Source: a virus
Taxonomy: Duplodnaviria > Heunggongvirae > Uroviricota > Caudoviricetes
DNA: 55,996 nucleotides
Reading direction: 5' to 3' (one strand)
Virus record (IMG/VR): IMGVR_UViG_2880361019_000001
The position numbers were made by a program. Shown one piece after another: positions 48,001 to 51,000 of this stretch; positions within the stretch are counted from its first letter, which is position 1, and the number at the start of each line of letters is the position of its first letter.

Positions 48001-51000
48001 GGAAGGGTATCTGGATGCGGAATACGCAGAACAACCGGGGGTTTCTCCACCACATGCAGGGTTAACGTCTAATCAACTGGAATTATTGCAGATTTTTTCA
48101 GCCTTCCCAGAGGATGAGCAACGCCAGATAATCAGCGAGTTAAAGCAGAAAAAAGAATCAATGGAAGATCTCATAGCGAGATGGATTGCGGCGCAAAAAT
48201 GCCGCCGCGCCTGAGTTATAAAACCGGAGGAAACATGAATAGAGCCCTTTCACCAATGGTTTCTGAATTTGAAACCATTGAACAAGAAAACAGTTACAAC
48301 GAATGGCTGCGTGCGAAAGTAGCAACGAGCCTTGCAGATCCGCGCCCAGCAATTCCCCATGACGAAGTTGAGCGCAGAATGGCAGAACGCTTTGCTAAGA
48401 TGCGCAAGGAACGGAGCAAGCAGTAAAATGTTACCCGTGTTATGGCTTGAAAGCGCAGATACCGACCTAGATGATATAACTAGTTATATTGCTCGTTTCG
48501 ACATAGATGCGGCTGAACGCTTATGGCAGCGATTAAGGGGTTGTGTGCTGCCGTTATCCGAACATCCGTATTTATACCCACCAAGCGACAGAGTACCTGG
48601 CTTGCGTGAGATTGTAGCCCACCCTAACTATATAATTCTATACCGCGTAACAACATCAAGCGTTGAAGTAGTAAACGTGATCCACGCAAGACGCCAGTTT
48701 CCCTAACTTTCACTACCAATAGAAACATAACAACCGCAACGACTTTATCAAAAGCGTTGTGTTTGTTATGTCCCGCTGTTTAGTTTTTACTTGACTTAAG
48801 TTTAATGTTTATTAGACTAAAAATACCAACCCACCCCGCCCCACAGAACGCAGGGAAATACTTCGAGTTACCCGGCAGTGGTCAGGGGTTAAGTAGCCAG
48901 CCCGAGGCGTATGAACATGACGGCAGGGTTCAACTTTAATAACTATGCAGCAGGTTTTTGTTCCGCTACCCCGGCGTTAAGGGGAAACAGAGGGTTTCTC
49001 AGTGGGCGAAGTCAAACATCAGAATGGAAGGCATCCCGGGATCGGCAAAGAAGCAGCAATGGCGCTTTATATTGACATCAGCGCCATTGCAGGACAGGTA
49101 AGAGTTATCAGAGCGGTAACTAAGCGGTATGCGCCTTTACTTCAGAAAGTCTCTGGTGAGTGCACCGAAGATATTGTCAACGATTTCGTCATCGAACTGC
49201 GAGGACTCATCTTCAGTTACAAGGTGACCACAATTTTTGCAGATGGCTCCCGCGAAACTGTCAGAGCCATGCGGTTTAAAGGATGTGTCGGTGATGCTGC
49301 CAACTTACTGATTTAGTGTATGATGGTGTTTTTGAGGTGCTCCAGTGGCTTCTGTTTCTATCAGCTGTCCCTCCTGTTCAGCTACTGACGGGGTGGTGCG
49401 TAACGGCAAAAGCACCGCCGGACATCAGCGCTATCTCTGCTCTCACTGCCGTAAAACATGGCAACTGCAGTTCACTTACACCGCTTCTCAACCCGGTACG
49501 CACCAGAAAATCATTGATATGGCCATGAATGGCGTTGGATGCCGGGCAACAGCCCGCATTATGGGCGTTGGCCTCAACACGATTTTACGTCACTTAAAAA
49601 ACTCAGGCCGCAGTCGGTAACCTCGCGCATACAGCCGGGCAGTGACGTCATCGTCTGCGCGGAAATGGACGAACAGTGGGGCTATGTCGGGGCTAAATCG
49701 CGCCAGCGCTGGCTGTTTTACGCGTATGACAGGCTCCGGAAGACGGTTGTTGCGCACGTATTCGGTGAACGCACGATGGCGACGCTGGGGCGTCTTATGA
49801 GCCTGCTGTCACCCTTTGACGTGGTGATATGGATGACGGATGGCTGGCCGCTGTATGAATCCCGCCTGAAGGGAAAGCAGCACGTAATCAGCAAGCGATA
49901 TACGCAGCGAATTGAGCGGCATAACCTGAATCTGAGGCAGCACCTGGCACGGCTGGGACGGAAGTCGCTGTCGTTCTCAAAATCGGTGGAGCTGCATGAC
50001 AAAGTCATCGGGCATTATCTGAACATAAAACACTATCAATAAGTTGGAGTCATTACCGGATGTGTCAAAGACTTCGCCGCCACATTCTGGGCAAGAAAAC
50101 TTGATTGTATTCATAACCAATTTCCTCTCGAGTAACAGACCCCTCAGAGGATACCACCTCGCCTGACGTGGTTAAAAGCAGGCAACGCTAACCACAAGGA
50201 GCCGACATGCAGAAACGAGAACCCGTCATCATCGCGCCAGACTATACCGATGATGAACTTTATGAGTGGATGCACCAGAAAATTAATGCAGCGCAGGAGC
50301 TGAAATGGGCCAATGAAGCCAGGGCTAAGCAGGCTGAAAATCTGTCCGCTCTGGAGCAGGATATCACCAATCTGGAAAAAGCAGCGGCATTAAGCATTGC
50401 CAGAATGATTACATACCCGCGTTAATAGCTAACCAACGAAGCTAAGGTTGGTAATTAAGGAGTTCTCCACGGGTGAGGTGGAGTGCGTGCGCCGGACACG
50501 GGTGAGCATCCGGCACTGACAGTTTACTGAAAGGATATTTCCCTGAAAAGTCAGACCATAACGCGAAAGCGCACGGCGAGGTAGCTGGTTCATAGATAGC
50601 CTGTCGTTAAATTTTCGTCGACCGTGCGCTTCCGGTTGTGGCAATCCGCGAAATGGCGCGGCGGTAAGTATGGCGGGGTTATCCCTTCCCCCGTTGAGGA
50701 CACCGGGTTGTCAGGTTGACCATACGCTTAAGTGACAACCCCGCTGCAACGCCCTCTGTTATCAATTTTCTGGTGACGTTTGGCGGTATCAGTTTTACTC
50801 CGTGGCTGCTCTGCCGCCCTTTTTAAAGTGAATTTTGTGATGCGGTGAATGCGGCTCAGCGCACGCGGAACAGTTAAAACCAAAAACAGTGTTATGGGTG
50901 GATTCTCTGTATCCGGCGTTAATTGTTAACTGGTTAACGTCACCTGGAGGCACCAGGCACCGCATCACAAAATTCATTGTTGAGGACGCGGGTGATGCTG

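What the first reader, a model, noticed from the sequence alone, without database searches (positions are those of the whole stretch)
48235..48785. Second ParE/RelE-type toxin-antitoxin pair next to the repressor gene
A 63-aa antitoxin-like ORF is followed 1 nt later by a 92-aa ParE/RelE-like toxin ORF and then a long imperfect hairpin with T-rich tail (48725-48785). Two independent ParE-type modules in one prophage is notable.
Basis: partly seen in the sequence, partly recalled or inferred. Interest (0 to 1): 0.4.

Follow-up and report, generated by a model that had tools for sequence, protein, structure and literature searches.

The report
Known PaaR2-PaaA2-ParE2 prophage toxin-antitoxin operon
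The two small genes are exact copies of PaaA2 and ParE2, a well-studied toxin-antitoxin pair of E. coli O157:H7 prophage CP-933P, and the "repressor next door" is PaaR2, the third gene of the same operon, so the finding is real but already known.

Summary
A 63-aa ORF (48235..48426) is followed 1 nt later by a 92-aa ORF (48428..48706), and then by a strong imperfect hairpin (core 48725..48771).

The two proteins are 100% identical to crystallised PaaA2 and ParE2 of E. coli O157:H7 (PDB 3ZBE, 5CW7). The upstream "repressor" (47843..48214, starting MQKKE) is PaaR2. It is the third component of the published paaR2-paaA2-parE2 operon and the CI-like repressor of a CP-933P/Sp12-type lambdoid prophage.

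Every published landmark is present:
- the 97-bp paaR2/ydaS intergenic region with GTTTAGT operators
- ydaS (Cro-like) and ydaT (CII-like)
- the YdaT operator TTGATTN6AATCAA
- the PRE933P and PL933P reporter fragments; all the published primers I searched for match with 0-1 mismatch

The antitoxin belongs to the PaaA family (Pfam PF21217) and has no DNA-binding domain. It is not ParD or Phd.

The hairpin's "T-rich tail" overlaps the OL operators and PL933P. The hairpin is plausibly the operon terminator, but this is untested.

A separate canonical ParD/ParE pair (41431..41993) does lie in the same window. It shows no detectable sequence similarity to PaaA2 or ParE2, so cross-neutralisation is unlikely.

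The locus occurs in 633 of 5,426 complete E. coli genomes. Verdict: already known, low interest.

The parts
47021..47446 (-). ydaT, the CII-like activator of PRE933P
   Evidence: Pfam PF06254. Matches PDB 8BT1, CP-933P YdaT, at E = 7e-93. Function taken from PMC8630535 and PMC9986795.
47436..47453 (.). YdaT operator OM, TTGATTTTCATGAATCAA, at the ydaS/ydaT junction
   Evidence: The only match to TTGATTN6AATCAA in the window; 0.01 expected by chance. The motif is published in PMC9986795.
47418..47537 (+). Published PRE933P reporter fragment: the YdaT-activated alternative promoter reading towards paaR2
   Evidence: Both published primers match with 0 mismatches. Function.
47443..47745 (-). ydaS, the Cro-like repressor
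   Evidence: Pfam PF15943 and HTH_3. Function from PMC8630535.
47746..47842 (.). 97-bp intergenic region holding the divergent promoters PRM933P (+) and PR933P (-) and the shared PaaR2/YdaS operators (GTTTAGT repeats at 47756, 47775 and 47814)
   Evidence: The length is exactly the published 97 bp. Repeats found. A PR-like TTGACT-18-TAAACT lies on the - strand. Published primers match with 0 mismatches.
47843..48214 (+). paaR2: 123-aa CI-like repressor, leaderless mRNA, first gene of the operon
   Evidence: Starts MQKKE, as determined by N-terminal sequencing in PMC8630535. Residues 1-71 match PDB 7NKV/8C3K at E = 1e-40. Identical to WP_001169687.1 as translated from L001.
48235..48426 (+). 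paaA2: 63-aa antitoxin, intrinsically disordered, with no DNA-binding domain
   Evidence: 100% identical to PDB 3ZBE/5CW7/5CZE PaaA2. Pfam PF21217 at 70.7 bits. NCBIfam NF050103 at 84 bits.
48428..48706 (+). parE2: 92-aa ParE-family toxin
   Evidence: 100% identical to PDB 5CW7_B/5CZE ParE2. Pfam PF05016 at 60.9 bits.
48725..48771 (+). Imperfect hairpin between the parE2 stop and PL933P (extended form 48712..48784, followed by UUUU). Putative terminator of the PRM933P operon.
   Evidence: Fold -25.7 kcal/mol, z = -4.63. Inverted repeat I3. The paralogous cassettes have a canonical terminator at the same position. The function is inferred and is not documented in the papers read (0 occurrences of 'terminator').
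48776..48824 (+). OL-type operator repeats (GTTTAGTTTTT at 48778, GTTTAATGTTT at 48800) and the PL933P promoter (TTGACT at 48791, 16-nt spacer, TAGACT ending at 48818), reading away from parE2
   Evidence: Promoter scan. This region is an inverted copy of the PR region, with a 12/12 match TACTTGACTTAA (I5/I2). The published PL933P-gfp fragment corresponds to 48707..48824, with one primer mismatch at 48815. Repression by PaaR2 and YdaS is published.
41431..41993 (+). The separate 'first pair': canonical ParD (RHH, 41431..41688) and ParE (41694..41993). It is not part of the paaR2 operon.
   Evidence: Pfam PF03693 and PF05016; NCBIfam TIGR02606. No BLASTP similarity to ParE2 or PaaA2.

Best explanation
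The finding is the paaA2-parE2 part of the three-gene operon paaR2-paaA2-parE2, which sits in the immunity region of a CP-933P/Sp12-like lambdoid prophage.

Shown in the literature for identical proteins:
- PaaR2 is the CI-like repressor. It is made from a leaderless transcript that starts at its own ATG (promoter PRM933P).
- PaaR2 competes with the Cro-like YdaS for GTTTAGT-type operators in the 97-bp divergent promoter region and at PL933P. This competition produces a bistable switch.
- The CII-like YdaT activates a second promoter (PRE933P) that reads into the operon.
- PaaA2 is an unstable, largely disordered antitoxin, degraded by ClpXP and ClpAP, and has no DNA-binding domain. It wraps around ParE2 and neutralises it.
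- If the locus is lost, PaaA2 decays and ParE2 kills the cell (post-segregational killing). ParE2 associates with the nucleoid and induces the SOS response.
- The exact target of ParE2 is unresolved. [quoted passage not shown]

Inferred here:
- The hairpin at 48725..48771 ends the PRM933P transcript just before PL933P and so insulates the early-left genes from lysogenic transcription.
- paaA2 and parE2 are translationally linked, since only 1 nt separates them.
For: - Protein identity: 100% to PaaA2 (PDB 3ZBE/5CW7) and ParE2 (PDB 5CW7_B). The PaaR2 N-terminal domain matches PDB 7NKV/8C3K and YdaT matches PDB 8BT1.
- Families: Pfam PF21217 and PF05016.
- Published landmarks: PaaR2 starts MQKKE and the paaR2/ydaS gap is exactly 97 bp, as published. 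The nine published EDL933 primers I searched for map at the expected places with 0-1 mismatch. The YdaT operator is present once. OR- and OL-type repeats and a PL promoter that mirrors PR are present.
- Function, from the literature: the operon, PaaR2 regulation, ClpXP/ClpAP-dependent killing, SOS induction, bistability and plasmid stabilisation (PMC8630535). The three-component architecture and the lack of cross-neutralisation with the paralogue (PMC4803016).
- Conservation: the same three-gene layout appears in diverged cassettes, with the regulator 37%, PaaA 62-63% and ParE 67% identical.
- Distribution: the locus is in 633 of 5,426 complete E. coli genomes, 558 of them at 99% identity or more, including O157:H7 strains.
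Against: - Nothing contradicts the identification.
- No experiment was done on this particular copy.
- It differs from the best complete-genome match by 8 SNPs in 2.4 kb. Two fall in regulatory elements: 47814, the first base of an operator half-site next to the PRM -35, and 48815, in the PL -10. These could shift regulation.
- An IS1 element 580 bp downstream (49290) interrupts the PL operon.
- The terminator role of the hairpin is only inferred. The U-run is not adjacent to the core stem, the scan tool did not call it, and in phage Evi two outer stem pairs are broken without compensation.
- The molecular target of ParE2 is unknown.
Confidence: 0.96

Rival explanations
1. A canonical, self-regulating two-gene ParD/ParE (or RelB/RelE) module that happens to lie beside an unrelated prophage repressor.
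For: The toxin is in Pfam ParE_toxin. NCBIfam and RefSeq label the antitoxin 'RelB family'. PaaA-ParE pairs without an upstream paaR occur in Bartonella and Sphingobium, so a two-gene form of the family exists. The PaaA2-ParE2 complex is reported to give partial repression on its own.
Against: PaaA2 has no ParD, RHH, Phd or AbrB domain and is described as lacking any DNA-binding motif. The three genes are published as one operon, and full repression and killing require PaaR2. The regulator-PaaA-ParE layout is kept in diverged cassettes. The RelE/StbE model scores below its cut-off (21.4 against 27.9 bits).
Confidence: 0.03
2. A phage-exclusion (abortive-infection) module that occupies the rexA-rexB slot of the immunity operon. 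It would be expressed from the lysogenic transcript and its main role would be to protect the lysogen against other phages rather than to cause addiction.
For: paaA2-parE2 replaces rexA-rexB positionally (PMC9986795). It is transcribed in both switch states without detectable toxin activity, so its trigger is unknown.
Against: No PADLOC defence-model hit for any of the three proteins. No experimental report of phage exclusion was found in the papers read. Addiction is experimentally shown.
Confidence: 0.12
3. The hairpin at 48725..48771 is not a terminator. It could be a protein-binding palindrome, a recombination boundary of the immunity cassette, or fortuitous.
For: The stem is A/T-rich at its base and the U-run is displaced, so the terminator scan did not call it. 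In phage Evi two outer pairs are broken without compensation. It lies inside the published PL933P reporter fragment, upstream of the promoter. The RAE2 clone used for plasmid stabilisation ended at the parE2 stop, so the hairpin is not needed for addiction.
Against: The fold is far stronger than shuffles (z = -4.63). The position, between the last gene and the next same-strand promoter, is where a terminator is expected. The paralogous cassettes carry a canonical terminator (CCCTC-ATTCG-AGGGAG-T8) at exactly that position.
Confidence: 0.3

Closest known systems
paaR2-paaA2-parE2 of E. coli O157:H7 EDL933 prophage CP-933P (identical to Sakai Sp12); Hallez et al. 2010, Sterckx et al. 2014/2016, Jurenas et al. 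2021
   Same: PaaA2 and ParE2 are 100% identical to the crystallised proteins. PaaR2 shares the MQKKE start and matches the deposited N-terminal domain. Gene order, the 97-bp intergenic region, the operators, ydaS/ydaT, the YdaT operator and the PRE and PL fragments are all the same.
   Different: A few SNPs: 47814 in operator IR1, 48815 in the PL -10, and 48777. An IS1 element lies 580 bp downstream. The surrounding prophage is a different mosaic: no complete E. coli genome holds 80% or more of 36000-55996.
Paralogous paaR-paaA-parE cassettes (the paaR1-paaA1-parE1 type of CP-933M; here represented by loci L003 and L004)
   Same: The same three-gene layout, divergent from ydaS/ydaT, followed by a terminator, a PL-type promoter and the same conserved leader.
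   Different: The regulator is 37% identical, PaaA 62-63% and ParE 67%. The C-terminal ~18 residues of PaaA are unrelated. PaaA1 and PaaA2 are reported not to cross-neutralise. I did not verify that L003 and L004 equal the EDL933 paralogue.
Canonical ParD-ParE (RK2, Caulobacter, Vibrio)
   Same: The toxin belongs to PF05016 and matches C. crescentus ParE1 (PDB 3KXE) at E = 4e-5. The antitoxin is labile and neutralises the toxin by direct binding.
   Different: The antitoxin has no RHH DNA-binding domain and regulation is delegated to PaaR2. ParE2 is reported not to bind GyrA59 or inhibit gyrase.
Phage lambda immunity operon cI-rexA-rexB with PRM/PR/OR, PL/OL, cro and cII
   Same: Same layout and logic: a leaderless repressor gene first in a leftward operon, two passenger genes after it, a divergent PR with shared operators, a second operator set at PL, and a CII-type activator of an alternative promoter.
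   Different: No sequence similarity. PaaR2 lacks the autocleavage domain, so it does not respond to SOS induction. There are four inverted repeats rather than three operators. The passengers are a TA pair rather than RexAB.

Membership tests
PaaR-PaaA-ParE three-component type II TA system | PaaA-family antitoxin (about 63 aa, no DNA-binding domain) | tested here: met
   Pfam PF21217 at 70.7 bits against a cut-off of 27. 100% identical to PDB 3ZBE PaaA2.
PaaR-PaaA-ParE three-component type II TA system | ParE-family toxin encoded immediately downstream of paaA | tested here: met
   Pfam PF05016 at 60.9 bits against a cut-off of 23. 100% identical to PDB 5CW7_B. The spacer is 1 nt.
PaaR-PaaA-ParE three-component type II TA system | Co-oriented HTH regulator gene (paaR) directly upstream, forming one operon | tested here: met
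   paaR2 at 47843..48214 on the same strand, 20 nt before paaA2. It matches PDB 7NKV/8C3K and starts MQKKE. Only the gene arrangement was tested here; co-transcription is published for the identical locus.
PaaR-PaaA-ParE three-component type II TA system | Toxicity of ParE, specific neutralisation by the cognate PaaA, and ClpXP/ClpAP-dependent post-segregational killing | not testable with these tools
   Published for proteins of identical sequence (PMC8630535; PMC4803016).
Canonical ParD/ParE module | ParD antitoxin with an N-terminal ribbon-helix-helix DNA-binding domain that autoregulates the operon | tested here: not met
   No PF03693 hit for PaaA2. No ParD chain came up in the PDB search at E <= 1. 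No BLASTP alignment to the window's own ParD.
Canonical ParD/ParE module | Toxin poisons DNA gyrase | not testable with these tools
   [quoted passage not shown] SOS induction and nucleoid co-localisation are reported.
RelB/RelE (mRNA interferase) module | Toxin passes the RelE/StbE model; antitoxin is RelB-like | tested here: inconclusive
   The toxin scores 21.4 bits on TIGR02385, below the 27.9 cut-off. The antitoxin passes NCBIfam NF050103, which is named 'RelB family antitoxin' (84 bits against 50). The name reflects NCBI's labelling of the PaaA family and is not a demonstrated relationship to E. coli RelB.
Lambdoid immunity region (CI/Cro/CII-type switch) | Divergent promoters with shared repeated operators between the repressor and cro-like genes, a second operator/promoter set (OL/PL) beyond the repressor operon, and a CII-type activator site | tested here: met
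   97-bp region with GTTTAGT repeats. The PL region is an inverted copy of PR. The YdaT operator is at 47436-47453. Published primers map as expected.
Rho-independent terminator (the hairpin at 48725..48771) | Stable G+C-rich stem followed directly by a U-tract | tested here: inconclusive
   The fold is stable (z = -4.63). UUUU follows only the extended stem, whose base is A/U-rich, and the scan did not call it. Paralogous cassettes have a canonical terminator at the same position.

The most novel reading that the evidence does not exclude
The most novel reading not excluded is that paaA2-parE2 acts as a phage-exclusion module, because it sits in the rexAB slot and is expressed from the lysogenic transcript. 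On that reading the same prophage would carry two mutually insulated ParE toxins with different triggers: PaaA2-ParE2 in the immunity operon and ParD-ParE in the nin region. This combination was not found as one contiguous block in the top-ranked matches among 5,426 complete E. coli genomes. A smaller novelty is that the hairpin at 48725..48771 may be an undescribed tIMM-like terminator separating PRM933P from PL933P.
Probability: 0.12. Interest if true: 0.4.

Novelty: already known. Interest (0 to 1): 0.1.

Why it matters
It matters mainly for annotation. The three genes should be named paaR2, paaA2 and parE2 and treated as one operon that is also the prophage's immunity switch. They should not be annotated as a generic RelB/RelE pair beside a 'hypothetical protein', which is how RefSeq labels them. 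In the phage Evi record parE2 is not annotated at all.

Biologically, the module is the textbook case of a type II TA system whose regulation has been handed over to a phage repressor. It is proposed to protect the immunity region against loss or replacement. This copy adds nothing new beyond a few regulatory SNPs and an unusual prophage mosaic that also carries a canonical ParDE pair.

Tried and rejected
- phmmer of ParE2, PaaA2 and PaaR2 against all window ORFs found no paralogue. The 'first pair' was found only through ORF inspection and Pfam.
- Rfam at E <= 1 over 47000-52500: nothing meaningful at the hairpin, only a chance mir-4703 hit at E = 0.31. DicF turned up elsewhere.
- PADLOC found no defence-model hit. 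PHROGs gave only 'unknown function' families for PaaA2 and ParE2.
- The conserved leader downstream of PL (48826-48990) has no significant fold (z = +1.1) and no covariation. I did not pursue it further.
- The original description, Hallez et al. 2010, is not held in the library. Its results are cited through PMC8630535 and PMC4803016.
- Co-occurrence of both ParE modules in one prophage was tested only by requiring one megablast place covering 80% or more of 41300-48800. One genome passed, and it has hokD instead of parDE.
- The source organism of the window was not identified.
- Loci L003-L005 were not visible to run_python, so the alignment tools were used instead.
- Two align_proteins calls failed because of a 2-nt coordinate slip. 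Notebook entry 1 carries the wrong coordinates 48237..48428 and 48430..48708; the correct ones are 48235..48426 and 48428..48706. An earlier count gave the ParD start as 41434; the correct start is 41431.
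Full report
**1. The observation**

The sequence shows an ATG at 48235 that opens a 63-codon frame ending at TAA 48424-48426. 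One base follows (48427). An ATG at 48428 then opens a 92-codon frame ending at TAA 48704-48706. A GGAGG lies 4 nt before the first ATG, and a GGAG lies 11 nt before the second, inside the end of the first gene.

Downstream there is an inverted repeat, 48725-48746 / 48750-48771, with 22-nt arms that are 82% complementary. As RNA, 48705-48800 folds to -25.7 kcal/mol. Shuffles average -12.2 +/- 2.9 kcal/mol, giving z = -4.63, and 0 of 200 shuffles fold as well. The ORFs and the hairpin are therefore real and at the stated coordinates.

One detail of the description needs correcting. The T run (48784-48788) is 13 nt beyond the core stem. It abuts the structure only if two weak A/U-rich outer helices form (48712-48722 with 48776-48784). 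The simple terminator scan did not call it.

**2. What it is**

- The 63-aa protein is 100% identical to PaaA2 of E. coli O157:H7 (PDB 3ZBE, 5CW7, 5CZE; E = 5.5e-37).
- The 92-aa protein is 100% identical to its partner toxin ParE2 (PDB 5CW7_B, 5CZE; E = 7e-60).
- Pfam places them in PF21217 (PaaA2, 'stability determinant') and PF05016 (ParE_toxin).
- The ORF just upstream on the same strand, read from the ATG at 47843, gives a 123-aa protein that starts MQKKE. Its first 71 residues match PDB 7NKV/8C3K at E = 1e-40.

MQKKE is exactly the N-terminus determined by protein sequencing for PaaR2, whose mRNA is leaderless (PMC8630535). The 'repressor gene' next to the pair is therefore PaaR2, the first gene of the published three-component operon paaR2-paaA2-parE2.

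**3. The surroundings match the published CP-933P immunity region in every mapped element**

- On the opposite strand lie ydaS (47443..47745; Pfam YdaS/HTH_3) and ydaT (47021..47446; PF06254; PDB 8BT1 at E = 7e-93).
- The paaR2/ydaS gap is 47746..47842, which is 97 bp, the published length.
- The gap carries GTTTAGT-type repeats (47756, 47775, 47814) and a PR-like TTGACT-18-TAAACT on the - strand.
- The YdaT operator TTGATTN6AATCAA occurs once in the window, at 47436-47453, the ydaS/ydaT junction. Chance expectation is 0.01. This is where PMC9986795 places it.
- I searched nine primers from the paper's supplement. All map where expected with 0-1 mismatch: the PRM/PR fragment at 47770-47843, PRE at 47418-47537, PL at 48707-48824, the paaR2 start at 47843 and the parE2 end at 48687-48706.

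The PL933P fragment therefore begins right after the parE2 stop and contains the hairpin. Beyond the hairpin lie two operator-type repeats (48778, 48800) and a promoter, TTGACT(48791)-16-TAGACT. This promoter region is an inverted copy of the PR region, with a 12/12 match TACTTGACTTAA.

**4. How it works**

The following comes from the literature on identical proteins, not from tests here.

- The three genes form an operon that is repressed by PaaR2. The PaaA2-ParE2 complex adds partial repression.
- PaaA2 lacks a DNA-binding domain and is degraded by ClpXP and ClpAP.
- Loss of the locus causes post-segregational killing.
- ParE2 co-localises with the nucleoid and induces the SOS response.
- PaaA1 and PaaA2 do not neutralise each other's toxin.
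- PaaR2, YdaS and YdaT act like lambda CI, Cro and CII. PaaR2 and YdaS compete for operators at PRM/PR and at PL, which gives two heritable states. YdaT activates PRE.
- The TA pair occupies the position of rexA-rexB.
- The operon is proposed to make the immunity region addictive.
- ParE2's target is unresolved. [quoted passage not shown]

My own inference concerns the hairpin. It probably terminates the PRM933P/PRE933P transcript before PL933P, by analogy with the terminator that ends lambda's cI-rexAB transcript (from general knowledge). Supporting this, the diverged cassettes L003 and L004 carry a canonical terminator (CCCTC-ATTCG-AGGGAG-T8) at exactly that position, between the parE stop and the PL-type promoter. 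Against it, the stem base is A/U-rich, and in phage Evi two outer pairs are broken without compensation. The paper does not mention a terminator. I give the terminator reading about 0.6-0.7.

**5. The 'second module' claim**

The window does contain another ParE-family module:
- ParD at 41431..41688, with an RHH domain (PF03693; TIGR02606 at 53.8 bits)
- ParE at 41694..41993 (PF05016 at 40.4 bits)

The two toxins give no BLASTP alignment and are 20% identical in a MAFFT alignment. The two antitoxins give no alignment at all. Even the 62-67%-identical paralogue does not cross-neutralise. Cross-talk between these two modules is therefore very unlikely, though this is an inference.

Each module is common on its own: the paa locus is in 633 of 5,426 complete E. 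coli genomes and the parDE pair in 365. In strains such as 2013C-3342 they lie in different prophages about 380 kb apart (H1 against H79). Only one genome matched 80% or more of 41300-48800, and it has hokD where the window has parDE. The pairing in one prophage looks like an uncommon product of lambdoid mosaicism. The test I could run was coarse.

**6. Comparison and membership**

The locus meets every testable defining feature of the PaaR-PaaA-ParE family. It fails the defining feature of canonical ParD/ParE, which is an RHH antitoxin.

The RelBE assignment is inconclusive. The toxin scores below the RelE/StbE cut-off, while the antitoxin passes an NCBIfam model that NCBI names 'RelB family'. 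That model is the source of the RefSeq label 'relB'.

It would be triggered with Pfam and not with NCBIfam. It is also not a valid refutation, because the pair is an experimentally established TA system.

Diverged cassettes keep the same three-gene layout, with the regulator 37%, PaaA 62-63% and ParE 67% identical. PaaA-ParE pairs in Bartonella and Sphingobium lack an upstream paaR. This fits the published idea that a two-gene module was captured by a prophage immunity operon.

**7. This particular copy**

Over 46900-49289 it differs from the best complete-genome match by 8 SNPs with no indels. The three proteins are unchanged.

Two SNPs touch regulatory elements. The first, 47814 (A for G), is the first base of the operator half-site GTTTAGTGA and lies directly after the putative PRM -35. 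The second, 48815 (G for A), changes the PL -10 from TAAACT to TAGACT. Their effect is unknown.

An IS1 element at 49290-50057 interrupts the first - strand gene downstream, an ECs_2282-family gene. A second IS1 lies at 50991-51758.

**8. Verdict**

- Novelty: already known.
- Interest: low, about 0.1.

Noticed in passing
window 48826-48990: The leader downstream of PL933P is almost invariant. About 80 nt (48826-48900) match in roughly 3,700 of 5,426 E. coli genomes, including K-12 Rac just after racR, and the stretch is unannotated everywhere. It stays conserved while the immunity cassette upstream is swapped. There is no Rfam hit, no significant fold and no covariation. Its function is unexplained; it could be a nutL- or put-like site or a recombination boundary.
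   Followed up: partly
window 49290-50057 and 50991-51758: Two IS1 copies in direct orientation; their first 300 nt are identical. The first splits the - strand ECs_2282-family zinc-binding gene. The second sits just after DicF, where dicB is expected. Together they bracket ydfC and dicF like a composite element.
   Followed up: partly
window 50768-50819 and 50831-50971: DicF sRNA, a full-length Rfam match at 75 bits (gathering score 48). It is followed by a sub-threshold STnc100-like match at 37 bits (gathering score 47).
   Followed up: no
window 47814, 48777, 48815: SNPs relative to the closest complete-genome copy fall in regulatory DNA. 47814 is the first base of an operator half-site next to the PRM -35. 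48815 is the third base of the PL933P -10 (TAAACT to TAGACT) and is also the one mismatch to the published EDL933 primer. 48777 (T for G) creates an extra A-U pair in the extended hairpin.
   Followed up: partly
window 41431-41993, compared with L001 14665-14820 and L006 1662-1817: At the nin-region slot beside the DUF968 gene, the window carries a canonical ParD/ParE pair. Other prophages with the same paaR2 immunity cassette carry the type I toxin hokD there instead. This slot seems to exchange different TA cargo.
   Followed up: partly
L011 2501-2979 (Bartonella taylorii); L019 2474-2936 (Sphingobium boeckii): PaaA-ParE pairs occur in alpha- and betaproteobacteria with PaaA 53-65% identical, as two-gene modules with no paaR-like gene upstream. 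How these are regulated without a DNA-binding antitoxin is unclear.
   Followed up: partly
L005 3229-3507 (Escherichia phage Evi, LR597642.1): An intact parE2 ORF, 100% identical at protein level, is present in the deposited phage genome but not annotated. paaA2 there is labelled 'hypothetical protein'.
   Followed up: yes
window 36000-55996: No complete E. coli genome holds 80% or more of this 20-kb stretch; the best is 70% at 94% identity. The prophage is therefore a mosaic not represented in that collection. The IS1 load hints at a Shigella-like or otherwise IS-rich host. The source was not identified.
   Followed up: no
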